Source: an uncultured Bacteroidales bacterium (GTDB taxonomy: Bacteria > Bacteroidota > Bacteroidia > Bacteroidales > B18-G4). Taken from it: 63,585 bases of DNA. Below, piece after piece: positions 53,648 to 63,585 of this stretch; positions within the stretch are counted from its first letter, which is position 1; each line of letters starts with the position of its first letter. The notes below the pieces were generated by a model. That model searched no databases, had not been told where the DNA came from, and was given only the letters and a program-made list of their open reading frames with translations. The translations under genes were made by a program, and so were the position numbers. Location: positions 388 to 63,972 of the forward strand of contig CAZASJ010000009.1 in NCBI GenBank assembly GCA_964487735.1, read 5' to 3'.

Positions 53648-54681
53648 ATATGCTGATCAATACCGGAATCATTGGTTTTGGCTTATCGGGAAAAGTATTT
53701 CATACACCCTTTATTCATACCCATCCCGCTTTTCATTTATCAGCAATCGTTGAGCGAAACAGAAAAGATTCTCAAAAGACCTATCCCGATATTCGTGTTT
53801 ATCAGGACCATCATGAATTGCTTGCCGACAAAAGCATTGACCTTATTGTAGTAGCCACTCCCAATATCCATCACTACTCCATGGTGAAAGAAAGCCTGCT
53901 TACCGGTAAACATGTGATTGTTGAAAAACCTTTTGTACCCAGCAGCAGCGAGGCTGATGAACTGATCATTCTTTCAGAAAAAACCGCTAAGAAAATATTT
54001 GTTTATCAAAACCGTCGCTGGGACGGAGACTTCCTGACCATTCAAAAGCTTATTTCAGAAAATCGTTTAGGGGCCATTTCGCATTATGAAGCGCACTTTG
54101 ATCGCTTCAGTCCTGCATTAAAACCAAATGCCTGGCGGGATAAAGACATCCCGGGCGGGGGGATCCTTTTCGACCTGGGGGCACACCTTATTGACCAGGT
54201 CCTGGTATTGTTTGGCTTACCACAAAAAATAAAGGCTGTCATTCAATCCGAAAGGCCGGGAAGCATTGTCGACGATTGCTTTGCCCTCAGCATGTACTAT
54301 CCGGAAAAAACGGTACTTCTTAAAGCAGGTATGCTGGTTGAAAAGGAAGGCCCTCGCTTCATTATCAAGGGTCAAAAAGGAACATTTACCAAATATGGGA
54401 TCGACCCACAGGAAGCGGCACTAAAGAAGGGGGAACTACCTCATGGTGACAACTGGGGCTCAGACGATGCCGCTCATTTCGGTACAATTAAAACCGAAAA
54501 GACCAGCAGTCCTGTTCCAACAGAAAAGGGGAACTACATGGGCTTCTACGACAATGTTTATGATGTTTTGTTCAAAAATAAACCGCAGGCTGTATCCCCT
54601 GAAGAAGGCAGAGATGTTATCTTTATCATTGAAAAGGCATTTGAAAGCAATCGGCAAGGCAAAATCATTGAAATCAAATAA
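53644..54681 (+). CDS. Gfo/Idh/MocA oxidoreductase, cytoplasmic (YdgJ/IolW-like)
   Basis: GIIGFGLSG...FH, VEKP, QNRRWD, DLGAHLID; no signal peptide. Confidence 0.9.
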   Translation: MNMLINTGIIGFGLSGKVFHTPFIHTHPAFHLSAIVERNRKDSQKTYPDIRVYQDHHELLADKSIDLIVVATPNIHHYSMVKESLLTGKHVIVEKPFVPSSSEADELIILSEKTAKKIFVYQNRRWDGDFLTIQKLISENRLGAISHYEAHFDRFSPALKPNAWRDKDIPGGGILFDLGAHLIDQVLVLFGLPQKIKAVIQSERPGSIVDDCFALSMYYPEKTVLLKAGMLVEKEGPRFIIKGQKGTFTKYGIDPQEAALKKGELPHGDNWGSDDAAHFGTIKTEKTSSPVPTEKGNYMGFYDNVYDVLFKNKPQAVSPEEGRDVIFIIEKAFESNRQGKIIEIK

Positions 54682-54703
54682 AACCAACATAAAAGCTGAA
54701 CCT

Positions 54704-56191
54704 ATGGAAAAAGACAAGAAAAGCGGCATCAGTCGCAGGAAGTTCATCGGGAATGTTTCCCTTGCAACAGCAGGCGTAACCATTCTTCCAAGCCATGTAA
54801 TCGGAGGCCTTGGCCATCTCGCGCCAAGCGATAAACTTAACATTGCCGGTATTGGTATCGGAGGTGTTGGAGGCACCAATATCAATAATTGCAGCAGCCA
54901 GAATATTGTTGCTCTTTGCGATGTAGATTGGGACTATTCATCTGATTTAATGGGCAAATACCCCGATGCTAAAAAATACAAGGACTATCGCAAGATGTTT
55001 GACGAAATGGGTGATGATATCGATGCAGTGGTGATTGCTACACCGGATCACACACATGCCATCACAGCAGCCCATGCCATGAAAATGGGTAAGCATGTAT
55101 ATCTTCAAAAACCGCTTACGCATTCCGTTTACGAATCACGGATGATGACAAAACTCGCCAATGAATATGGTGTTGCCACACAGATGGGCAACCAGGGAAA
55201 TTCAGGTGAGGGCATCCGGCAGATCTGTGAGTGGCTATGGAATGATGCCATAGGAGAGATCTCTGAAGCATACGCCTGGACCAACAGGCCGATCTGGCCA
55301 CAAGGCTTAGAGCGCCCCACGGAAACACCTTCACTGCCCCCGACCCTTGACTGGGACTTGTTTATCGGCCCCGCCCCATGGCGCCCGTACAATCCGGTCT
55401 ATCATCCATGGAACTGGCGTGCCTGGTGGGACTATGGCACCGGTGCATTGGGCGATATGGGTTGTCATATCTTCGACCCTGTTTATAAAGCACTCAAGCT
55501 TGGCAATCCTGAATATTTATATGGGAGCTCTACACAGGTAAATACTGAAAGTGCGCCCATCGGCTCCGCCGTACACTACGAATTTCCCGACAGGGGAAAA
55601 CATGACAAGCTAAAGCTTGTACCCGTAAAAGTCAGCTGGTTTGATGGCGGGCTCATGCCACCAAGACCGGCCGAACTTCCTGACGGTGAGATCATGGGCG
55701 ACTGGAGCGGAGGTTGTCTCTTTATTGGAAGCAAAGGAAAGCTTATTTGTGGCGCATATGGCAGAAATCCTAAACTGCTTCCCGAAGAACTGGATAAAGG
55801 CTATAAACGCCCCGAACCAAGCCTGAGAAGGATTGAAGGTGCGATGGAAGGCGGACACGAGGCTGACTGGATCAGGGCCTGTAAAGAAGATCCCGCCACA
55901 CGGGTGGAATGCAGCTCCAATTTTAATTATGCCGGCCCCATGAACGAAGTGGTGGTTATGGGGAACCTGGCCATTCGTCTTCAGGACCTGAAACGCAAGC
56001 TGAAATGGGATGGAGACAATATGAAGATCACAAATATTGGCGATGAAGACGAGATCAGGGTAGTGACATCCGATAAATTTACGGTGATCAATGGGCATCC
56101 GCATTTCGACACTCAATATGCAACCATTAAAGCCAGGCCGGCAGCTGAGGAGTATATCAGGCATACCTATCGCGAAGGCTGGGAACTATAA
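54704..56191 (+). CDS. Gfo/Idh/MocA oxidoreductase with Tat signal
   Basis: SRRKFIG; NIAGIGIGG; ATPDHTH; QKP; GALGDMGCH; start moved to MEKDK at 54704. Confidence 0.93.
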   Translation: MEKDKKSGISRRKFIGNVSLATAGVTILPSHVIGGLGHLAPSDKLNIAGIGIGGVGGTNINNCSSQNIVALCDVDWDYSSDLMGKYPDAKKYKDYRKMFDEMGDDIDAVVIATPDHTHAITAAHAMKMGKHVYLQKPLTHSVYESRMMTKLANEYGVATQMGNQGNSGEGIRQICEWLWNDAIGEISEAYAWTNRPIWPQGLERPTETPSLPPTLDWDLFIGPAPWRPYNPVYHPWNWRAWWDYGTGALGDMGCHIFDPVYKALKLGNPEYLYGSSTQVNTESAPIGSAVHYEFPDRGKHDKLKLVPVKVSWFDGGLMPPRPAELPDGEIMGDWSGGCLFIGSKGKLICGAYGRNPKLLPEELDKGYKRPEPSLRRIEGAMEGGHEADWIRACKEDPATRVECSSNFNYAGPMNEVVVMGNLAIRLQDLKRKLKWDGDNMKITNIGDEDEIRVVTSDKFTVINGHPHFDTQYATIKARPAAEEYIRHTYREGWEL

Positions 56192-56257: not shown

Positions 56258-57043
56258 ATGAAGAAGTATTTCATTTTACTGAGTATGACTTTTATTGCTT
56301 TTCTGGTTTCCTGCAATATGCAGGTGGAGCAAAAGAAAGAAGCACAAGAAGAGGTGGTTGTTAGCCAAACGGTTCAAAAGCCCAACACCCTTAACCAGGA
56401 AGAGTTAGACGATGGTTGGATCCTGATGTTTAACGGGCTCACCACTGATATGTGGCGTTCACATAATGGCGAAATCTTTCCCGGCACAGGCTGGGAGGTT
56501 GTTGATGGTACCCTGCACGTAATCGGTTCCGGCAGGGGAGAGGCCGGGGGCGGAGGCGATATTCTCTTCGACAGGAAATTCAGCAATTTTGAATTATCCC
56601 TTGAATGGAAAGTAGCAGAAGCCGGCAATAGCGGGATCTTTTACCTGGCACAGGAAATTCCGGGCGATCCGGTTTGGAAAAGTGCTCCGGAAATGCAGAT
56701 CCTCGACAATGAAAGGCATCCCGATGCGAAGCTTGGTGTGGATGGCAACAGGGCTGCCGGTTCACTCTATGACCTCATTCCCGGAAGTTTTGATGCCGTG
56801 AAGCCTGCCGGTGAATGGAACCATGCTATGGTGATGGTCTTTAAGGGAACTGTTATTCATACCATGAATGGAGAAACCGTTGTGGAATACCATCTTTGGA
56901 CCGACGATTGGAAAAAAATGGTTGCCAATAGTAAATTCAAGGATTACGAACATTTTGTGAACCCTGCATCCGAAGGCTACATCGTACTTCAGGATCATGG
57001 CGACGATGTTTGGTTCAGGAATATTAAAATACGGGAACTGTAA
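56258..57043 (+). CDS. DUF1080 (3-keto-disaccharide hydrolase/lyase) lipoprotein
   Basis: Lipobox LVSC; NSGIFY; EMQILD; AGSLYD; GEWN; LQDHG. Confidence 0.92.
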   Translation: MKKYFILLSMTFIAFLVSCNMQVEQKKEAQEEVVVSQTVQKPNTLNQEELDDGWILMFNGLTTDMWRSHNGEIFPGTGWEVVDGTLHVIGSGRGEAGGGGDILFDRKFSNFELSLEWKVAEAGNSGIFYLAQEIPGDPVWKSAPEMQILDNERHPDAKLGVDGNRAAGSLYDLIPGSFDAVKPAGEWNHAMVMVFKGTVIHTMNGETVVEYHLWTDDWKKMVANSKFKDYEHFVNPASEGYIVLQDHGDDVWFRNIKIREL

Positions 57044-57236
57044 AAGAAACCATGGGAATAATTATTATGAATCCTTATTAATACTGATGTCCCATAAGTT
57101 ATTCTTAAACTAATCAGCACATATAACCGTATAGGTACCTCCCGTGCTTAAAACACCACCTGTACCGGATGTGCCACCTGTACCGGCTGTGCCGCCTGTA
57201 CTTGCTGTGCCACCTGTGCTTGCTGTGCCCCCACTG
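56800..57236 (+). repeat. 437-bp direct repeat, copy 1
   Basis: Aligns without gaps to 62633-63069 (offset 5833), with substitutions at 56827, 57149, 57169 and 57212. Confidence 0.97.
57110..57236 (-). pseudogene. Orphan duplicated 3' end of the Gly/Thr-tailed propeller gene
   Basis: Encodes GGTASTGGTASTGGTAGTGGTSGTGGVLSTGGTYTVICAD, nearly identical to the end of the 62943-63585 ORF, but lacks its 5' part. Confidence 0.85.
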
Positions 57237-57461
57237 AATAGTGATGAAAACAATTGGAAAAGGCTCATATCACAACATGAGTTAAAAACAATTAATTTGT
57301 TTGCCAAGGAAAATTGGAATTCTATCTTAAAAGAGAAATACGATATAAGTGGATTTCCTCATTATGTTCTTATTGACAAAGACGGGAGTATTATTCAAAA
57401 TAAATGTGTGCATCCAAGCAATGGTGCTGAACAATTAATTAGAACCCATCTGAGCAAGTAA
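57237..57461 (+). pseudogene. C-terminal fragment of a TlpA/thioredoxin-like protein
   Basis: NSDENNWK...KYDISGFPHYVLIDKDGSI is a typical TlpA/redoxin tail; no CxxC region, the 5' part is replaced by repeat copy 1. Confidence 0.7.
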
Positions 57462-57584
57462 TAGCTGGTGAATAGTAGATCTCAGCTAGGTTTAACTTTT
57501 GGAATTTGTGAAACCCTAAGATGACGTATATCGTAATTTAGCATCTTTAGAGCCTTTTTAACTCTGAAGGATATATTTGGAGGG

Positions 57585-59474
57585 TTATTTCCTCCCAAAA
57601 CTAATTCTATCGATGGCTTGACCATTCTGAGTTAAAACTGTATGATAAATACCTGGTGACAAATGAGAGCAGTTTATAATTTGAGGATTATTGCTTATCC
57701 TGTCTGAATGTACCATACTTCCAAATGAGTTATAGATGGAAAGTTTAGTATTGAGAAATTGTTCAATAGTTACTTCAATTTGTGGATGGCTGGTAGAGCC
57801 ATTTAAGATTTTTAGATGAGTCTTTTTTTCACTTGGAATTGAATTAGTTCCAAGCGTGGATTTATTTCCACTATACTCAATATTGGGATCATTTTCCCTG
57901 CAAACTGGTAGTGTAATTAAATTAGAGTCTAATTCAATTGTCGTTGGATCATAAGTCCAATTACCATAGGTTTGATTTGGGTTATAATGTATGGTAGTTT
58001 TATTGACCTGGTTTGTTCCCCTGAAATGTGCATCCATAATAATTATTGGGGGTTGAAAAGTTAATGTTTTACCTCCTTTTATGATATAATCAGATTTACA
58101 AATAGAATTTGTACTACAATTAGCCGGAACAGGATAATCTCTTTCATAATCAAAATCAAAATATGTGATCGCTTCCCAATATTCAGCCGAATAGTCTCCA
58201 GTGAATACTTCATGAAGGCTATCTGCATATTTTCCGCGAAGAGTTAAGAACTGATAATTGCATGGAAAAGTAAGGTCGCATGAAATTGTAACTTCAGATG
58301 GATTATAGATTATTTTTTCTGATGGATTTATTATCTTGAGGTCAAATGCTTCTTTTATTTCAAAAGAAAGCTCTTTGCCTTTAATTGTATCTCCACCTGT
58401 ATAATATCCAGCGTAAGACTTTAATTGGTGATTTAAAAGCGGAGCATCTAATAAAGTAAATGGTGGGGGGTGAACAAGTGCCGAATTATATCTGCCTAGC
58501 AAATGGTCTGATTCAAAAGTATAATCACCAGCCTGTCCGGGTTCGTAATACAAGAGAGGCAAGTCATTTGGGTGGGATTGTGGCTCATCTGCACATACAT
58601 CCCATTTTTCTACCTCTGCAGATGGAAAGTAATTTACAGATCCTGTATAATTGGGGCCTATACCACTGTTATATATAAACTTGTTACTTGTAAGTGTGTA
58701 TTCGATTATTGTATTGTCAGGGTTGCTAATAAAAGTCGGTCTAAATGCAACATCAATTAAAGTATTTATAGTAGCCTCTTCTTTTGAACCTTCGGTTTCA
58801 ATCCAAGGATAAAACTTCATTCTACCGCGAGTATTGTCATATATCCAGGAAATAGAATCAATTACCGAATCCGTTATTTTGTCTCCACAATGACAATATA
58901 ACGTTTGCTTAAGAATCGTATGTGGTAAGTGACATTGTTCATCCGTTGTTGTACCAATATAATTACCCTGTGCATATATTTGTGTTAAGAGGCCATAATC
59001 ACCATAACAATGACTGTTTTGAGAGCCTCCACAAAGATTGATATTATCCAATTTGCTAAATATTTTATATAGTCCATAATCCCACCCTAAACCTTCATAA
59101 TGGTCGGCTCCATTTGTTCCATTTTGGGTTAATATTTCTCCATAATATCCATCAACTACTTTAGTGGTTAAAACTCGATCGCTATTAGTTAGGCTCCCAA
59201 TTTTTGTCAGAGTTTCATCAAAATCCTCAGGAATGAAAGGAAAGGAAACTATTTCTATACTAAAACTAATTGCATTATTATATAATTCTTCAGACTTGCT
59301 CCAAAACAATTTATCAATATAAATTTGATATTCTCCAGTATAAGCATTTATGTGTGGAGCATTGGGCCAAAGGTTTTCGTTGAAATGATAATCGTATGCA
59401 TCTTCTAAATTTTGAGTATTCCCCAAAACGGCTATTAGAAGAAGCATAATAGTCAATCCCTTTTTCATATGCAT
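57585..59474 (-). CDS. T9SS-secreted hypothetical protein, unrecognised N-terminal region
   Basis: Signal peptide MKKGLTIMLLLIAVLG; degenerate CTD (IYNSFG...LSPGIYH); AT-rich coding sequence. Confidence 0.75.
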   Translation of the reverse strand: MHMKKGLTIMLLLIAVLGNTQNLEDAYDYHFNENLWPNAPHINAYTGEYQIYIDKLFWSKSEELYNNAISFSIEIVSFPFIPEDFDETLTKIGSLTNSDRVLTTKVVDGYYGEILTQNGTNGADHYEGLGWDYGLYKIFSKLDNINLCGGSQNSHCYGDYGLLTQIYAQGNYIGTTTDEQCHLPHTILKQTLYCHCGDKITDSVIDSISWIYDNTRGRMKFYPWIETEGSKEEATINTLIDVAFRPTFISNPDNTIIEYTLTSNKFIYNSGIGPNYTGSVNYFPSAEVEKWDVCADEPQSHPNDLPLLYYEPGQAGDYTFESDHLLGRYNSALVHPPPFTLLDAPLLNHQLKSYAGYYTGGDTIKGKELSFEIKEAFDLKIINPSEKIIYNPSEVTISCDLTFPCNYQFLTLRGKYADSLHEVFTGDYSAEYWEAITYFDFDYERDYPVPANCSTNSICKSDYIIKGGKTLTFQPPIIIMDAHFRGTNQVNKTTIHYNPNQTYGNWTYDPTTIELDSNLITLPVCRENDPNIEYSGNKSTLGTNSIPSEKKTHLKILNGSTSHPQIEVTIEQFLNTKLSIYNSFGSMVHSDRISNNPQIINCSHLSPGIYHTVLTQNGQAIDRISFGRK

Positions 59475-59485
59475 TAATTTATTCG

Positions 59486-61594
59486 TTATTGTATAATAAG
59501 CTTTTGAATTTCAGTAACGTGTCTAGTCTTAATGATTAGATAATATATACCAGGTGGATAATTTGAAACGTCAACCTTAACCCACAATGTGCTTGAATTG
59601 GTCTCTTTGTAACTAAATGAATTTAAATATCTACCAATATTGTTGAATATACCTATTTTAACAGGATTCGAATTAGTCAATCCTACTACTACATTGACAT
59701 AGGATGAGCTTGGATTAGGAAATATTTTTGTATTTATTAAATAATCATTATTCATTACAGGTTCAAATAGATTAACAGCACCTCCATTATCTGTATACAA
59801 AATTGTACCATTGTCTCCACATGTCCATCCGGTCTCATCTGAAATAAAATCAATACTATAAAGGCTATTTGTTGATAGGATAGGTAGCACTGTCCACGAA
59901 TCTCCACTATTTTGGGTATTAATTAGGATTCCATTTTCCCCACACACCCATGCAATATTTTGATCAATTACAGAAATATCGTATAGGTTTTTATCCGTAT
60001 TTGAAACCTGTGTATTCCAATTTGTCCCACCATCATCTGTATAGAGTATTTCTCCTCCGTTACCAACTGCCCACCCATTAAGGAAGTTGCTCATAAAAAT
60101 TCCATTCAAAGGGTAGAAAGATTCAGCATTTTGTTTTATCCAGCTATTTCCACTATCTTGAGTTTTCCATATATTACCATTTAGCGAAGTAATCCACCCA
60201 GTTGTTTCGTTTATAAAAAAGATGCTAGAAAAGTTTTCATTAAAAAATGACCCTTGTTCAGTCCAATTCCACCCACCATTCGTGGTCTTAAATAGACAGC
60301 CGTCCCAACCTGCCACCCATCCAATATTATTATCAATAAAATATACTGACATTATTAGTGGGTCATCCAAAAGCGATATATTCGTCCAATTATCACCACC
60401 ATTAGATGTACGATAAATAGCCCCCCATTCACCAACTACCCATCCATTTTGATTATCTTTAAACGTTAAATCTGTTAGCGTGAATTCGAAAATATTCGTT
60501 AACAATGACCATTCTCCCCCCCCGTTAATAGTTTTTAATATTGCCCCATTATTACCTACGGCCCAACCATTATTATTATCAACAAAATCAATAGACCCTA
60601 GAGAGTAAAAGAGACCACTAGACGTTGTTACCCAATTAATCCCACTATCATCTGTTTTACATACAGTCCCATGAAAGCCAGTACAAATACCGTTACTAAT
60701 ATCATGAAAGAAGATATCGTATAATATCTCAGCCACTCCACTTTGTTGTGGATTCCAATCAAGTCCACAATTTGTAGTGTAAAGAACTAATCCACTATCC
60801 CCTACAATCCATCCATTTTCTATATCAATAAAATATATACCCTGCAAGGTATTTGTGTAAGGAATGGTCACTGTTTCCCAATTAAATCCTCCATCATTCG
60901 TGTGTACTATTGTTCCAGATACTCCAACAGACCAACCATACATTGAGTCTACGAAAAATATATCTATTAAGTTTTTGCTTGTTCCAGAAGATTGTGAAAT
61001 CCATGTATTTCCTGCATCTGTAGTCGCTAGTATATTCCCAGCCGGGCCACACACCCAGCCATGATTATAGTCACTGAAAGATGCTGATTTCATAATATGA
61101 GGAGCTGAATGTTTAAAAGACCAATTAGCTCCACCATCAGCCGTATAAACTATATCCTTTCCTATAGCCCAACCAGTATCTTTATTGATAAATATAATAT
61201 CGTTTAGTGGTAAAAAGGTGTTGCTTTCTTGCTCTGTCCAGTTTTGGCCTCCATCGATAGTTTTTAATATCAGGCCAGATCCTTTAGAATATGAGTATCC
61301 ACATGCCCAACCTATTGATGGATCTTCAAGATGAGTGCTATTCAAAAGGAATGACGAATTATAGTATAGTATATCCCAAGATTCTCCTCCATCATTAGTT
61401 TTTAGAATAGAACCGTCATAACCTACTACCAATCCATTGTTTTCATCGATAAATGACATCTTAACAAGTGGAGAGTTTGAAGGGATAGGATTCTGCCAAT
61501 ACCATTGACCTGAAGAACTTATACTGGAGCTCAAAAATAATACTACGATTAATAATCTGTAAATAGCTTTTCTTAGATTATCGCTTTTAATCAT
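59486..61594 (-). CDS. T9SS-secreted YCF48/BNR-repeat beta-propeller protein
   Basis: About 14 repeats of F.D...GW.VG..G.IL.T.DGG..W; CTD FPNP...PGIYYL...KLII. Confidence 0.9.
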   Translation of the reverse strand: MIKSDNLRKAIYRLLIVVLFLSSSISSSGQWYWQNPIPSNSPLVKMSFIDENNGLVVGYDGSILKTNDGGESWDILYYNSSFLLNSTHLEDPSIGWACGYSYSKGSGLILKTIDGGQNWTEQESNTFLPLNDIIFINKDTGWAIGKDIVYTADGGANWSFKHSAPHIMKSASFSDYNHGWVCGPAGNILATTDAGNTWISQSSGTSKNLIDIFFVDSMYGWSVGVSGTIVHTNDGGFNWETVTIPYTNTLQGIYFIDIENGWIVGDSGLVLYTTNCGLDWNPQQSGVAEILYDIFFHDISNGICTGFHGTVCKTDDSGINWVTTSSGLFYSLGSIDFVDNNNGWAVGNNGAILKTINGGGEWSLLTNIFEFTLTDLTFKDNQNGWVVGEWGAIYRTSNGGDNWTNISLLDDPLIMSVYFIDNNIGWVAGWDGCLFKTTNGGWNWTEQGSFFNENFSSIFFINETTGWITSLNGNIWKTQDSGNSWIKQNAESFYPLNGIFMSNFLNGWAVGNGGEILYTDDGGTNWNTQVSNTDKNLYDISVIDQNIAWVCGENGILINTQNSGDSWTVLPILSTNSLYSIDFISDETGWTCGDNGTILYTDNGGAVNLFEPVMNNDYLINTKIFPNPSSSYVNVVVGLTNSNPVKIGIFNNIGRYLNSFSYKETNSSTLWVKVDVSNYPPGIYYLIIKTRHVTEIQKLIIQ

Positions 61595-61986
61595 CTTATT
61601 AGAGGTTTAATAATTACAGGATATTGGTTTTATTCTTGCACTAATATACTTCAGAATTTATGTATAATCAAGTTTTTGAGTTTTAAATTATATTCTGGAA
61701 TTTATGACACACATATTTTAGATAAAGTTGATAGCCTGAATCCAAATTAACAAGGGGGAATTATAGTAGTTTTATACCTACCATGTGGGGTAGGAAACAC
61801 TAATCCTCGCAGTTACCCTGATTTACTATTTATTAATATCACACCCTGAGAATCCTTACTCCTGGTAATTGAAGAATTGCTAAATTTTCGGAAAATATAG
61901 GAATTTGGTTTTGGATATAATACCTGTTTTTCATCTCGTATGAAACTATTTGGAAGCAATATTATAATTGATAATATGTCTCAAGG

Positions 61987-62104
61987 TGGAGATTCCAGTC
62001 AAAGTGAACATCTGATATCGGAGTAAACTGTACAGTCAAATCGGAGCAAACTGTACACCTGATTCCGGACCAAAGTGTACAGTCATTCCGGAGTAAACTG
62101 TACA
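61987..62104 (+). repeat. IS21 left-end transposase-binding repeats (5 units)
   Basis: Units at 61987, 62011, 62035, 62058 and 62082 with core TC(C)GGAG(T/C)AAA(C/G)TGTACA; no spacers. Confidence 0.85.
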
Positions 62105-62632
62105 CCCCCTAAAACACAAAATTTACCATACTATTGAAAGCATAATTTAGCTGTTTTCTAATCTAAAAACAGTAGAGGTTATGTCAAATAAATCGATAGA
62201 TATGAGTAAAATAAGAAGACTAATACAACTTCACGAGCAAGGTAGGAGCAAGCTATTTATTAGTGAGTACCTGGAAATATCTCGCACTACCGTAATCAAA
62301 TACCTGAACCTCTATAAAATTATGGGATGGTCAGCTGATAAGCTGCTCAGCATGAGTGATATTGAGCTTGAGAAGTTATTTATGGAGCCATCGCCCAAGG
62401 TCATTTCTCAAAGGCTTGAGGATCTTTTTAAGTTCTTTCCGTACTTCGACAAGCAAATAAAGAAGCCAGGGGTAACCAAGACGATGTTATGGCAGGAATA
62501 CTACGATAAGCACCCAGGTGGCTTTAGGAGTACACAGTTTAACGAATATTACCACAGGTGGAGTAAGAAAGCCAATCCTCTCATGCATATTAATCATAAA
62601 GCCGGAGATAAGTTATATGTGGATTATGCCGG
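61987..62632 (+). mobile_element. IS21-family insertion sequence remnant (left end plus 5' istA)
   Basis: Starts with TG; five tandem 23-24 bp end repeats; istA 5' portion; no istB and no right end. Confidence 0.85.
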
Positions 62633-62876
62633 GAAGCCTGCCGGTGAATGGAACCATGCCATGGTGATGGTCTTTAAGGGAACTGTTATTCATACCATGA
62701 ATGGAGAAACCGTTGTGGAATACCATCTTTGGACCGACGATTGGAAAAAAATGGTTGCCAATAGTAAATTCAAGGATTACGAACATTTTGTGAACCCTGC
62801 ATCCGAAGGCTACATCGTACTTCAGGATCATGGCGACGATGTTTGGTTCAGGAATATTAAAATACGGGAACTGTAA
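62181..62876 (+). pseudogene. istA: Chimeric ORF: IS21 transposase IstA N-terminus fused in frame to the DUF1080 C-terminus
   Basis: MSNKSIDMSKIRRLIQL...HKAGDKLYVDYAGK is a Bacteroidetes-type IstA N-terminus; it continues as KPAGEWN...NIKIREL, identical to the end of 56258-57043. Confidence 0.9.
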
Positions 62877-63069
62877 AAGAAACCATGGGAATAATTATTA
62901 TGAATCCTTATTAATACTGATGTCCCATAAGTTATTCTTAAACTAATCAGCACATATAACCGTATAGGTACCTCCCGTGCTAAAAACACCACCTGTACCG
63001 GCTGTGCCACCTGTACCGGCTGTGCCGCCTGTACTTGCTGTGCCGCCTGTGCTTGCTGTGCCCCCACTG
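62633..63069 (+). repeat. 437-bp direct repeat, copy 2
   Basis: See copy 1; 433/437 identical. Confidence 0.97.
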
Positions 63070-63585
63070 CCACTGCTACAATTGGTTAGGCAGGTGGTTC
63101 CATCACTTAATAGTTTGACAAGATAAAAATCATTGCCACCGGATCCAAAACTTGCAGTATACCCCCCCATAACATAACTCCCATCCGTTGTTTGAATGAT
63201 TGCATTCCCTATTTCTGTTCCGCTTCCACCTGTTGTGCGTGTCCACTGCAAAGCACCTGTATTATCCAGTTTTACGATATATGCGTCATAATTCCCTGCC
63301 CCAAAAGAACCTGTATAACCGGCAATAGCAAATCCACCATCAGATGATTGAATGATGGAATTGGCCCAGTCCTGATTTGTACCACCAACGGTGCTTGTCC
63401 AGAGGAGTGTTCCTGTATTATCCAGTTTTACGATATAGGTATCATTACTCCCCGCACCAAAAGACCACGTTTCACCTGCAACGACAAGTCCACCATCCGA
63501 TGCCTCCACTATAGAATATCCGTATTCATTACTTGTGCCGCCCACAGTTCTGGTCCACTGCAATGCACCTGTATTATCCAGTTTT
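62943..63585 (-). CDS. Beta-propeller repeat protein with Gly/Thr-rich hexapeptide tail (5' end off the window)
   Basis: Frame is open to the window edge; about 50-aa repeats W...GG...D/E...I....DGG...AG.T.SFGAG..D.Y.VKLD; tail of six GGxxxT-type hexapeptides then ICAD. Confidence 0.85.
   Translation of the reverse strand, partial: KLDNTGALQWTRTVGGTSNEYGYSIVEASDGGLVVAGETWSFGAGSNDTYIVKLDNTGTLLWTSTVGGTNQDWANSIIQSSDGGFAIAGYTGSFGAGNYDAYIVKLDNTGALQWTRTTGGSGTEIGNAIIQTTDGSYVMGGYTASFGSGGNDFYLVKLLSDGTTCLTNCSSGSGGTASTGGTASTGGTAGTGGTAGTGGVFSTGGTYTVICAD

What the first reader, a model, noticed from the sequence alone, without database searches (positions are those of the whole stretch)
56800..63069. 5.4-kb AT-rich cargo bracketed by a 437-bp direct repeat that keeps both flanking convergent genes intact
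Seen: the layout is A-R-X-R'-B. R (437 bp, 4 substitutions between copies) contains the last 244 bp of the DUF1080 gene, the intergenic gap and the last 127 bp of the convergent propeller gene, so both flanking genes stay complete. X (57237-62632) is visibly AT-richer (one sample line is about 32% GC against about 50% in a line of the upstream cluster) and both its ends fall inside genes, not at IS termini. Known: IS21 target duplications are only a few bp; long variable duplications occur with IS1634/IS1549, but those are bounded by IS ends. Inference: a replication template-switch or Campbell-type insertion that created a 5833-bp unit which RecA could excise as a circle or amplify in tandem, toggling two T9SS cargo genes. 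A chimeric assembly is the main alternative.
Basis: partly seen in the sequence, partly recalled or inferred. Interest (0 to 1): 0.75.

Follow-up and report, generated by a model that had tools for sequence, protein, structure and literature searches.

The report
Foreign DNA insertion with 437-bp target duplication
A 5.4-kb piece of foreign, AT-rich DNA carrying two secreted-protein genes sits in the chromosome of an uncultured Bacteroidales bacterium between two copies of a 437-bp stretch of the host's own sequence; this layout ("insertion with long target duplication") is rare but already described, and it leaves the insert easy to lose or amplify.

Summary
R (56800-57236) and R' (62633-63069) are 437 nt with 4 differences, 5833 nt apart. 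They bracket X (57237-62632), which has 34.6% GC against 42.1±1.4% for the rest of the contig. X runs from the middle of a tlpA-like gene to codon ~152 of an IS21 istA gene. It carries a two-gene T9SS cargo operon whose GC3 (0.24-0.26) falls outside the range of every other ORF in the window.

A one-off chimera is unlikely. Both junctions recur base for base in assemblies of at least five other samples. Removing one 5833-nt unit restores the DUF1080/propeller arrangement seen in relatives. One public contig (L009) carries the predicted X-R-X circle or tandem junction.

Caveats remain. Only three contigs cross R's 321-nt identical core. All four differences lie where k=55 assembly can phase them, so the true R/R' divergence is unknown, and L009 could be a repeat mis-resolution.

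No intact donor copy of tlpA or istA exists in the databases searched. X contains no integrase, tRNA or IS end that would explain the event. The right joint lies in the microhomology ATGCCG[G/T]GAAG.

The best reading is a new, non-RM member of the known class "insertion with long target duplication". It is now a substrate for homologous recombination. Interest is moderate to low.

The parts
56258..57043 (+). Intact DUF1080 / 3-keto-disaccharide hydrolase gene (261 aa). Its last 244 nt form the left part of R.
   Evidence: Pfam PF06439 E=3e-48, profile 1-187/187. Relatives of 260-261 aa.
56800..57236 (.). R, the left copy of the 437-nt duplicated target: DUF1080 tail, 66-nt spacer and 127-nt tail of propeller gene B.
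   Evidence: Aligns without gaps to the single-copy site in L002.
57110..57236 (-). Orphan 3' remnant (127 nt) of the propeller gene B. It lies in the Gly/Thr/Ala-rich region with 9-nt periodicity.
57237..62632 (.). X, the 5396-nt insert, compositionally foreign.
   Evidence: GC 0.346 against 0.421±0.014. Tetranucleotide z = +10. Cargo GC3 0.24-0.26. No match in plasmid or phage collections.
57237..57461 (+). 3' fragment of a TlpA/thioredoxin-like gene (74 codons; the CxxC half is missing). It is read as part of a chimeric 105-aa ORF, 57144-57461.
   Evidence: Thioredoxin_8 profile 44-94/94, with homology starting exactly at the first codon of X. DsbH-like match. The same 105-aa ORF was called as a gene in L004, L009, L013 and L014.
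57585..59474 (-). 629-aa protein of unknown function with a T9SS C-terminal sorting domain.
   Evidence: Por_Secre_tail scores 25.7 bits, just under the 27-bit cut-off. In the AF2 model the C-terminal domain has pLDDT 85-91, and the best fold match is the NucA CTD in the T9SS translocon, 8glk_D, TMt 0.74. The identical protein occurs on 3 other contigs.
59486..61594 (-). 702-aa T9SS cargo protein: two tandem Ycf48/BNR-like beta-propellers plus a CTD. It forms an operon with the 629-aa gene.
   Evidence: PSII_BNR E=1e-58, 8 stretches. Por_Secre_tail 45 bits. PDB Ycf48 hits. A homologous 704+621-aa pair lies adjacent in L010.
61995..62105 (+). IS21-type left end: 4-5 subterminal repeats of about 23 nt (..AAACTGTACA..CGGAG). 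The exact outer terminus was not determined.
   Evidence: (family D5). Position about 80 nt upstream of the istA start.
62181..62636 (+). istA 5' fragment (HTH region, about 152 of about 515 codons). The DDE domain, istB and the right IS end are absent. It is fused in frame to the DUF1080 tail, giving the chimeric 231-aa ORF 62181-62876.
   Evidence: NF033546 positions 3-124/294. 49% identical to the annotated istA of Arenibacter pSMS7, whose istA is 515 codons and is followed by istB. Relatives read ..VDYAGK(K/T)L.., so native istA runs through GGGAAG.
62626..62636 (+). Right joint. The microhomology ATGCCG[G/T]GAAG is shared by istA and DUF1080 (compare 56793-56803), and the crossover lies within GAAG.
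62633..63069 (.). R', the right copy of the duplicated target.
62943..63585 (-). 3' part of propeller gene B (DUF5122/SBBP repeats). It runs off the window and is complete at 607 aa in L007.

Best explanation
This is a real chromosomal 'insertion with long target duplication'.

Origin (inferred). A random 5.4-kb fragment of DNA from a lower-GC Bacteroidota donor was captured in the variable slot downstream of the DUF1080 gene of an uncultured Bacteroidales bacterium. The fragment runs from mid-tlpA, through a two-gene T9SS cargo operon, to mid-istA of an IS21. Both joints were made by illegitimate recombination using microhomology at most. No transposase or integrase acted on element ends. The two joints landed 433-437 nt apart in the 'crossed' order. 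The stretch between them, which holds the tails of two convergent genes and their spacer, was therefore copied on both sides of the insert, and both host genes stayed intact.

The most economical route is a single event: a nascent strand or a broken end switches to the foreign template and re-primes about 437 nt behind its point of departure. An equivalent route is capture of the fragment in a widely staggered break followed by fill-in. Selection then favoured this outcome because it disrupts neither flanking gene.

Present behaviour (partly shown). The two R copies are a substrate for RecA-type homologous recombination. This should delete X precisely, release an X+R circle, or amplify the 5833-nt unit in tandem, changing the dosage of the two cargo genes. 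One public contig shows the junction expected from a circle or tandem array.
For: Structure: establish the repeat and its spacing. One search shows the foreign composition of X.

Reproducibility: L004, L013 and L014 carry the identical left joint. L007 and L008 carry the identical right joint. L009 carries both. These come from samples SAMN06140899, SAMN06140900 and SAMN06140901, from SRR5112542 and from JGI 3300029449. The microhomology at the joints (4-11 nt) is far below any assembler k, so reads must span them.

Same organism: contigs of the A region (L015-L017, 99.93-100% identical) and of X (99.92-99.96%) co-occur in the same samples. L007 continues from X through R' and B into CoaX, a 429-aa gene, a TPR gene, LptC and CorC. 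That order is syntenic with what follows DUF1080 in relatives.

Empty site: relatives L001-L003 have DUF1080, a 66-nt spacer and the 607-aa gene, and they align without gaps to the window once one unit is removed.

No dedicated machinery: X holds no integrase, rep or RM gene, no tRNA and no hidden ORF. The IS21 is truncated internally.

No resident donor: no intact istA above 76% identity and no second context for the 629-aa gene in 5.8 billion protein clusters. Contigs run through both X boundaries without branching.

Precedent: repeats of 46 to about 423 bp flanking low-GC inserts with no mobility genes have been described, together with an amplification and release cycle (PMC2853133; 'and other DNAs', PMC3457768). 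RecA-dependent copy-number switching between flanking repeats has been shown in Burkholderia thailandensis (PMC9946442).

Circle or tandem junction: L009 reads X_right, R, X_left. Its R carries the R' allele at SNP1 and the R alleles at SNPs 2-4.
Against: - No reads were available. Only three contigs traverse the 321-nt identical core of R: the window (twice), L007 and L009. The A-R-X link is seen only in the window.
- Other contigs stop exactly at the SNP branch points (56828, 62981, and 57094 = SNP2-55). The repeat is therefore collapsed in those assembly graphs.
- All four R/R' differences can be chained to unique flanks at k=55, and none lies in the core (P≈0.005 if differences were spread evenly). 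One core site (56932, T or C) differs between assemblies. The true R/R' divergence is therefore unknown.
- 0.9% or more divergence between copies is large for a recent in-situ duplication. It fits better if one copy came from another strain, as in the Campbell/HR rival.
- No empty site was found in the same strain. The donor is unknown, so microhomology at the left joint cannot be assessed.
- The one-step mechanism is an inference, not an observation.
Confidence: 0.55

Rival explanations
1. Campbell-type integration. A 5833-nt circle (X plus one R copy, R*) already existed, for example excised from another strain of the same species that carried the insert. It entered this chromosome by a single homologous crossover within R. 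The two illegitimate joints were made earlier, elsewhere. What is seen here is homology-driven spread of the unit between strains.
For: L009 is exactly such a circle junction. Its R* carries the alleles C;T,A,A, as predicted for a crossover in the core. Divergence of 0.9% or more between R and R' is easier to explain if one copy came from another strain. An 86-nt deletion variant of X coexists in the population. The slot is a recombination hot spot: the B module is 95-100% identical between lineages whose flanks are only 72-80% identical. A release and re-invasion cycle has been hypothesised for such units (PMC2853133).
Against: The allele pattern is forced by linkage to the flanks, so it cannot discriminate between models. 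This rival does not explain how the two joints first arose; it only postpones the question. X has no replication or transfer functions. No strain with an empty site of identical sequence was found.
Confidence: 0.2
2. Assembly artefact. The real molecules are the chromosome with an empty A-R-B site plus a separate X-R tandem array or circle, or another genome. The assemblers threaded them together through the collapsed 321-nt core. Alternatively, the contig is a chimera.
For: The insert lies about 900 nt from the end of a 63,972-nt MAG contig. Several contigs break exactly at the SNP branch points, which shows that the core is collapsed in the graphs. L009 threads X to R to X. The A-R-X link is seen only in the window.
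Against: Two different assemblies (the window and L007) thread X to R' to B, and L007 runs on into syntenic housekeeping genes. If B is single-copy and is joined to X, then A-R must be joined to X_left. The joints themselves are identical in six or more contigs from five or more samples, with only 4-11 nt of microhomology, so they are not de Bruijn false joins or random in-vitro chimeras. A 5.8-kb circle without rep functions would not persist on its own. A and X co-occur at the same strain-level identity in the same samples.
Confidence: 0.12
3. Intragenomic origin. X is a copy of a resident locus of the same genome, with intact tlpA and istA-istB elsewhere. It was placed here either by a microhomology-mediated template switch between two chromosomal sites or by a large tandem duplication later trimmed by deletion.
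For: Template switching with a return behind the point of departure gives exactly this topology. The right joint has 11-nt microhomology with one mismatch. Duplication followed by recombination is an accepted alternative for similar layouts (PMC3457768).
Against: No intact IstA above 76% identity and no other context of the 629-aa protein were found in the protein collection, which includes assemblies of the same samples. Contigs cross 57236/57237 and 62632/62633 without branching. The cargo GC3 of 0.24-0.26 lies outside the range of all 32 other ORFs tabulated on the contig.
Confidence: 0.08
4. Transposase-made long target-site duplication, in the manner of IS1634/IS1549 or IS21-mediated replicon fusion.
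For: An IS21 left end and an istA fragment lie inside X.
Against: Neither end of X is an IS terminus. The left end is mid-tlpA. The right end is about 640 nt inside the IS, at istA codon ~152. There is no DDE domain, no istB and no right IS end.
Confidence: 0.02

Closest known systems
Insertion with long target duplication (Nobusato et al. 2000, Gene 259:99; Furuta, Abe & Kobayashi 2010, NAR, PMC2853133)
   Same: An insert of under 20 kb, often of lower GC, with no functional mobility gene. It is flanked by long direct repeats (46 to about 423 bp reported) that correspond to a single-copy sequence in related genomes lacking the insert. The repeats often include gene 3' ends. The repeats were proposed, and in part shown, to support amplification and release.
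   Different: The described cases were found by screening for restriction-modification genes, and DNA breakage by the RM enzyme was proposed as the driver. Here the cargo is two T9SS-secreted proteins plus gene fragments, with no RM gene. The host is an uncultured Bacteroidales bacterium known only from metagenomes. The empty site is seen only in relatives about 80-95% identical, not in a sister strain.
RecA-dependent duplication/amplification units bounded by direct repeats (for example the IS2-flanked 208.6-kb region of Burkholderia thailandensis, PMC9946442; also amplifiable units of Streptomyces, from my own knowledge)
   Same: Two directly repeated homologous sequences flank a cargo. Unequal crossing-over gives tandem copies and resolves them again, so the population is heterogeneous in copy number. 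The X-R-X contig L009 is the diagnostic junction.
   Different: The repeats here are duplicated host sequence, not IS copies, and at 437 nt they are much shorter. No phenotype or selective condition is known. The tandem junction rests on one short-read contig.
Illegitimate integration of foreign DNA during natural transformation: homology-facilitated and double illegitimate recombination (Hülter & Wackernagel 2008, as cited in PMC12359135), and SPDIR (bioRxiv 10.1101/2023.11.22.568220)
   Same: Random fragments of heterologous DNA become joined to the chromosome at short microhomologies without element-encoded enzymes.
   Different: To my knowledge the experimentally described events usually delete or replace recipient DNA, or are very short. 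A 5.4-kb insert with a 437-nt duplication has not been tied to these pathways. Competence is unknown in this organism.
IS26-type translocatable units and Campbell integration of circles (from my own knowledge)
   Same: The topology matches: one repeat copy plus cargo can exist as a circle and re-enter at another copy of the repeat, which yields repeat-cargo-repeat.
   Different: R encodes no transposase. Movement would depend wholly on host homologous recombination and on a recipient that carries the same 437-nt sequence.

Membership tests
Insertion with long target duplication (criteria of Furuta 2010, PMC2853133) | The insert is flanked by direct repeats longer than 30 bp. | tested here: met
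   437 nt with 4 differences.
Insertion with long target duplication (criteria of Furuta 2010, PMC2853133) | Both repeat copies align to one single-copy sequence in a related genome that lacks the insert. | tested here: met
   L001-L003 carry DUF1080, a 66-nt spacer and the 607-aa gene. The window with one unit removed aligns to L002 without gaps across the joint. Caveat: these relatives are about 80% (DUF1080 part) to 97-100% (B part) identical, not the same strain.
Insertion with long target duplication (criteria of Furuta 2010, PMC2853133) | No other mobile-element function (integrase, tRNA att site, intact transposon ends) accounts for the repeats. Insert is under 20 kb. | tested here: met
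   X is 5396 nt. It has no integrase, rep or relaxase domains and no tRNA. The only IS is truncated at istA codon ~152, and its end is not at either joint.
Insertion with long target duplication (criteria of Furuta 2010, PMC2853133) | The insert carries restriction and modification genes. This was a screening criterion of the published survey, not a feature of the mechanism. | tested here: not met
   No RM domains were found in any X ORF. The class has also been reported for 'other DNAs' (PMC3457768).
IS21 family element | Complete istA (HTH plus DDE) and istB between two terminal inverted repeats. | tested here: not met
   Only the left-end repeats and IstA residues 1-152 are present (NF033546 positions 3-124/294, 56 bits against a 160-bit cut-off). 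A full relative has a 515-codon istA plus istB. This is a truncated remnant, not an active member.
Long-TSD transposition (IS1634/IS1549 type) | The duplicated target directly abuts the two termini of the IS. | tested here: not met
   The joints lie in mid-tlpA and in mid-istA.
Site-specific integrative element | An element-encoded tyrosine or serine recombinase and a short att core at both ends. | tested here: not met
   X contains no recombinase. The repeat is 437 nt of coding plus spacer sequence. A tyrosine integrase is present only in the relatives L001/L002, beyond gene B.
Repeat-bounded amplifiable or excisable unit | Direct repeats long enough for homologous recombination, plus an observed tandem or circle junction. 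| tested here: inconclusive
   The repeats are adequate, with a 321-nt perfect core. The X-R-X junction is present in L009 with a recombinant R. It comes from a short-read assembly that could have mis-threaded the repeat.
T9SS cargo (type A CTD) | A C-terminal Por_Secre_tail sorting domain. | tested here: met
   702-aa protein: 45 bits against a 27-bit cut-off. 629-aa protein: 25.7 bits, just below the cut-off, but its confident C-terminal model matches the NucA CTD in the T9SS translocon (8glk_D, TMt 0.74).

The most novel reading that the evidence does not exclude
The 5833-nt R-X unit may be a naturally operating, RecA-driven copy-number switch (absent, single or tandem) for a pair of T9SS-secreted proteins. 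Its X+R circles may also act as homology-targeted cassettes that spread between strains carrying the 437-nt anchor. That would be the 'invade, amplify, release' life cycle proposed for RM units, but without any selfish gene. The coexistence of an X-R-X junction, an 86-nt deletion variant and a hidden polymorphism in the R core would then reflect two or more diverged unit copies in single genomes.
Probability: 0.15. Interest if true: 0.55.

Novelty: new member of a known kind. Interest (0 to 1): 0.35.

Why it matters
This is a clean natural example of a gene being acquired with no mobile-element machinery. A random fragment of foreign DNA was fixed in a chromosome by two illegitimate joints, and a long duplication rescued both neighbouring genes.

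It extends the 'insertion with long target duplication' class beyond restriction-modification cargo and into Bacteroidales. That argues the mechanism is a general host DNA-repair or replication accident rather than something RM enzymes cause.

It also shows that such events can be recognised, and partly validated, from public metagenome assemblies alone. The same analysis shows how a collapsed repeat core limits what short-read assemblies can say about repeat divergence and about integrated versus excised forms.

It does not reveal a new system or enzyme.

Tried and rejected
- Exact-protein look-ups of the window's own DUF1080, GFO and 702-aa proteins returned nothing. The window's own contig appears not to be served by that index, and my start codon for the 702-aa gene is not the one on record.
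- Scans with the 629-aa protein found no relative in genome contigs or metagenome contigs.
- An exact 45-nt pattern from the R spacer found nothing in metagenome contigs, although JGI contigs L001-L003 and L009 contain it. That collection therefore does not hold those samples.
- The genome-contig scan with DUF1080 gave 80 relatives of at most 81% identity but not the source MAG. None of the 12 loci checked (L001, L002, L007, L018-L025, L063) has a comparable duplication next to DUF1080.
- The IstA N-terminal search found only 7 relatives, at 47-76% identity, and no intact copy.
- X has no blastn match in the plasmid or phage collections.
- Rfam gave no hit, and the promoter and terminator scans were at or below chance level.
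- A literature search on homology-facilitated illegitimate recombination with duplication was unproductive.
- The first 309 nt of L008 reminded me of a DNA-methyltransferase C-terminus, but Pfam gave no hit, so I make no claim about it.
- The AF2 model of the 629-aa protein is poor outside the CTD (mean pLDDT 62), and only the CTD gave a meaningful fold match.
- IS21 or long-TSD transposition and site-specific integration were considered and rejected because the joints are not at element ends and X contains no recombinase.

Full report
**1. The observation**

The window holds one long repeat. R (56800-57236) and R' (62633-63069) are 437 nt each and start 5833 nt apart. They differ at 56827 (T/C), 57149 (T/A), 57169 (A/C) and 57212 (A/G). 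Similarity continues 7 nt further left: ATGCCG, then a G/T mismatch at 56799/62632.

R holds three pieces:
- the last 244 nt of an intact DUF1080 / 3-keto-disaccharide-hydrolase gene (56258-57043; Pfam profile 1-187/187);
- a 66-nt spacer;
- the last 127 nt of a convergent DUF5122/SBBP propeller gene, called B here.

X (57237-62632) has 34.6% GC, against 42.1±1.4% for same-size windows of the rest of the contig (z = -5.3). Its tetranucleotide distance has z = +10. The GC3 of its two large genes is 0.24-0.26, against 0.35-0.53 for every other ORF.

**2. What X contains**

- 57237-57461 (+): the 3' 74 codons of a TlpA/thioredoxin-like gene. Homology to the Thioredoxin_8 profile (positions 44-94 of 94) starts at the first codon of X.
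- 57585-59474 (-): a 629-aa protein with no recognisable domain except a T9SS C-terminal domain. The Pfam score is borderline. The confident C-terminal part of the model matches the NucA CTD bound in the T9SS translocon.
- 59486-61594 (-): a 702-aa protein made of two Ycf48-like propellers plus a T9SS CTD.
- A 586-nt non-coding stretch with no hidden genes, ending in 4-5 subterminal repeats of about 23 nt, of IS21 type (about 61995-62105).
- 62181-62636 (+): the first 152 codons of an IS21 istA gene, 49% identical to an annotated 515-codon istA that is followed by istB. This fragment is fused in frame to the DUF1080 tail, giving a chimeric 231-aa ORF.

X has no integrase, replication, transfer or RM gene, no tRNA and no Rfam match. 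The istA fragment has a GC3 of 0.48, so X is itself a mosaic: a low-GC operon into which an IS had already inserted in the donor.

**3. Is it an assembly chimera?**

The window is nearly all of a 63,972-nt contig of an NCBI MAG, and R' lies about 900 nt from its end. Public assemblies of other samples contain the same joints base for base.

| Contig | Source | Window span | What it crosses |
|---|---|---|---|
| L004 | SAMN06140900 | 56828-60497 | left joint |
| L013 | SAMN06140899 | 57094-60175 | left joint |
| L014 | Logan SRR5112542 | 56828-57756 | left joint |
| L007 | SAMN06140901, 13.5 kb | 60955-63584 and beyond | right joint |
| L008 | SAMN06140899 | 60200-62981 | right joint |
| L009 | JGI 3300029449 | X_right, R, X_left | both R/X joints |

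The joints share only 4-11 nt of microhomology, so no de Bruijn assembler could create them without reads that span them. Recurrence across samples rules out a random in-vitro chimera.

Contigs of the A region (L015-L017) occur in the same samples at 99.93-100% identity. The X contigs are 99.92-99.96% identical.

L007 continues from X through R' and a complete 607-aa B gene into CoaX, a 429-aa gene, a TPR gene, LptC and CorC. The same genes follow DUF1080 in the relatives L011/L018, L019, L021, L023 and L024. A and the DNA beyond B therefore belong to one chromosome.

**4. Limits of that evidence**

Several contigs end exactly at the R/R' differences. L004 and L014 start at 56828 (SNP1+1). L008 ends at 62981 (SNP2-1). 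L013 starts at 57094 (SNP2-55, the signature of k=55). The 321-nt identical core is therefore collapsed in those graphs.

Only the window (twice), L007 (X to R' to B) and L009 (X to R to X) thread through the core. The A-R-X link is seen only in the window. It does follow from L007, if B is single-copy.

All four differences can be chained to unique flanks at k=55, and none lies in the core (P≈0.005 for an even spread). One core site (56932) is T in both window copies and in L007, but C in L004, L008 and L009. "Four substitutions" is thus a lower bound on the divergence between the copies.

**5. Empty site and genomic context**

No same-strain empty site was found. The DUF1080 protein is unique to this contig, and its nearest relatives are 84% identical.

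Relatives L001-L003 have DUF1080, a 66-nt spacer and a 607-aa convergent gene. The window with one 5833-nt unit removed aligns to L002 without a gap across the joint.

The slot is variable among relatives:
- DUF1080 is followed directly by CoaX (gaps of 358-394 nt) in L021, L023 and L024.
- A TonB-dependent receptor fills the slot in L011/L018.
- B plus a tyrosine integrase fills it in L001/L002.
- B alone fills it in this lineage.

The B module, which starts about 30 nt before the DUF1080 stop codon, is 94.7-100% identical between this lineage and L001/L002. The flanks are only 72-80% identical. This slot has therefore exchanged DNA recently.

None of the 12 loci checked (L001, L002, L007, L018-L025, L063) has a comparable duplication next to DUF1080.

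**6. Where X came from**

The exact 629-aa protein occurs only on contigs consistent with this locus. There is no intact IstA more than 76% identical, and no intact tlpA context, in the protein collection, which includes assemblies of the same samples. X has no match among plasmids or phages. Scans of genomes and metagenomes with the 629-aa protein found nothing.

A homologous adjacent gene pair (704 and 621 aa; 41% and 51% identity) lies on a 36%-GC contig of the same study (L010). The operon is therefore native to some other low-GC Bacteroidota.

Contigs run through both boundaries of X without branching. Together with the foreign composition, this argues against a second resident copy and for horizontal acquisition of a random fragment.

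**7. The joints**

IstA relatives read ...HKAGDKLYVDYAGK(K/T)L.... Native istA sequence therefore runs through GGGAAG (62631-62636), while DUF1080 reads GATGCCGTGAAGCC at the corresponding place. The crossover lies within GAAG, inside an 11-nt microhomology with one mismatch (ATGCCG[G/T]GAAG).

At the left joint, R ends in ...CCCCCACTG, and B continues with a second CCACTG. The donor sequence upstream of the joint is unknown, so microhomology there cannot be scored.

Neither joint is at an IS terminus or at an att-like site.

**8. Mechanism**

*Shown:* a foreign fragment flanked by a duplicated 437-nt target; two illegitimate joints; intact flanking genes; reproducible joints.

*Inferred:* the two joints were made in one event, with the second joint landing about 437 nt behind the first. 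This could be a nascent strand or a broken end copying the foreign fragment and re-priming upstream. It could equally be capture in a widely staggered break followed by fill-in. Selection then kept an outcome that damages neither gene.

*Main rival:* Campbell-type entry of a pre-existing X+R circle from another strain. It fits the divergence of 0.9% or more between the copies, and it fits L009. It still needs the same two illegitimate joints to have formed earlier.

*Present-day consequence:* homologous recombination between R and R' should delete X precisely, release a 5833-nt circle or build tandem arrays. L009 shows the diagnostic X_right-R-X_left junction. Its R carries the R' allele next to X_right and the R alleles next to X_left, and the contig also carries an 86-nt deletion in the 629-aa gene. 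L014 stops at the left edge of that deletion and L013 has a scaffold gap there. A real population variant is therefore likely. L009 may still be a mis-threaded repeat.

**9. Comparison with known systems**

The layout is the class that Kobayashi's group named "insertion with long target duplication". Its features are:
- inserts of under 20 kb, often of deviant GC;
- no mobility genes;
- flanking direct repeats of 46 to about 423 bp that match a single-copy site in a related genome.

The class was described for restriction-modification systems in Helicobacter, Haemophilus, Neisseria, Campylobacter, Burkholderia and others. A cycle of invasion, amplification and release was proposed (PMC2853133). 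The class was later noted for "other DNAs" (PMC3457768).

All structural criteria are met here. The RM cargo criterion is not. This matters because DNA breakage by the RM enzyme was suggested as the driver of such events.

Functionally, the unit also resembles RecA-dependent repeat-bounded duplication switches, such as the IS-flanked region of Burkholderia thailandensis (PMC9946442).

It is not an IS21 transposition product, not a long-TSD IS insertion and not a site-specific integrative element.

**10. Verdict**

The structure is almost certainly real in the community DNA and very probably integrated as drawn. Its potential to toggle is supported by one contig. The route of origin is unresolved.

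It is a new, non-RM, Bacteroidales member of a known class, so its interest is moderate to low. Read-pair or long-read mapping across R in the named public samples would settle what remains open.

Noticed in passing
window ~57010-57236 and 62843-63585; L007:1680-4016; L001:963-3299: The propeller-gene module runs from the last ~30 nt of DUF1080, through the 66-nt spacer and the 607-aa gene, to ~200 nt upstream of that gene. It is 94.7-100% identical between this lineage and the L001/L002 lineage, whose neighbouring core genes are only 72-80% identical. In L001/L002 a tyrosine integrase follows it. This suggests recent lateral exchange of the module at this slot.
   Followed up: partly
L021, L023, L024, L011/L018, L019, compared with window 57043 onward: The slot between DUF1080 and CoaX (type III pantothenate kinase) is a variable hot spot. 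It is empty (358-394 nt) in three relatives. It holds a TonB-dependent receptor in L011/L018, an unexamined insert of about 3.5 kb in L019, and the propeller gene here.
   Followed up: partly
L009:1960-2020, corresponding to window ~57758-57850: There is an 86-nt deletion between short ATTGA(G)AA(A)TT repeats in the CTD-coding end of the 629-aa gene. It occurs on the X-R-X contig. L014 stops at 57756, and L013 has an N gap at 57771-57807. A population polymorphism in X is therefore likely.
   Followed up: partly
L008:1-309, joined to window 60200: In sample SAMN06140899, X is joined inside the 702-aa gene to 309 nt of unrelated AT-rich DNA, which carries an ORF fragment with no Pfam match. L013, from the same sample, ends at 60175. 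This could be a second insertion into X in that population or a chimeric scaffold.
   Followed up: partly
window 56932 / 62765: This site in the R core is T in both window copies and in L007, but C in L004, L008 and L009, and also C in relative L002. It could be a hidden fifth R/R' difference that assemblers collapse, or a polymorphism between strains.
   Followed up: no
window 61749-61797 (minus strand); L010:1318-1365: A non-coding motif of about 48 nt lies upstream of the 702-aa gene. It is 79.6% conserved with the upstream region of the homologous 704-aa gene in L010 and contains a GGTAG...CTACC hairpin. It may be a promoter or a regulatory element of the cargo operon.
   Followed up: no
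window 57138-57237 and 62971-63088: The C-terminal coding end of the propeller gene is a 9/18-nt periodic tract rich in Gly, Thr, Ala and Ser codons. Three of the four R/R' differences fall in it, so they may arise by slippage or conversion within the tract rather than by point mutation.
   Followed up: no
window 62181-62876 and 57144-57461: Both joints create open chimeric ORFs. One is IstA-HTH fused to the DUF1080 tail (231 aa). The other is the antisense of the propeller-gene tail fused to the TlpA tail (105 aa). Gene callers annotated both in several public assemblies as 'proteins', an example of junction artefacts entering protein databases.
   Followed up: yes
window 54443-56191: The longest ORF (582 aa) over-extends the GFO/Idh/MocA oxidoreductase. 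The 495-aa form starting at 54704 matches relatives and begins with a twin-arginine-like SRRKFIG signal.
   Followed up: partly
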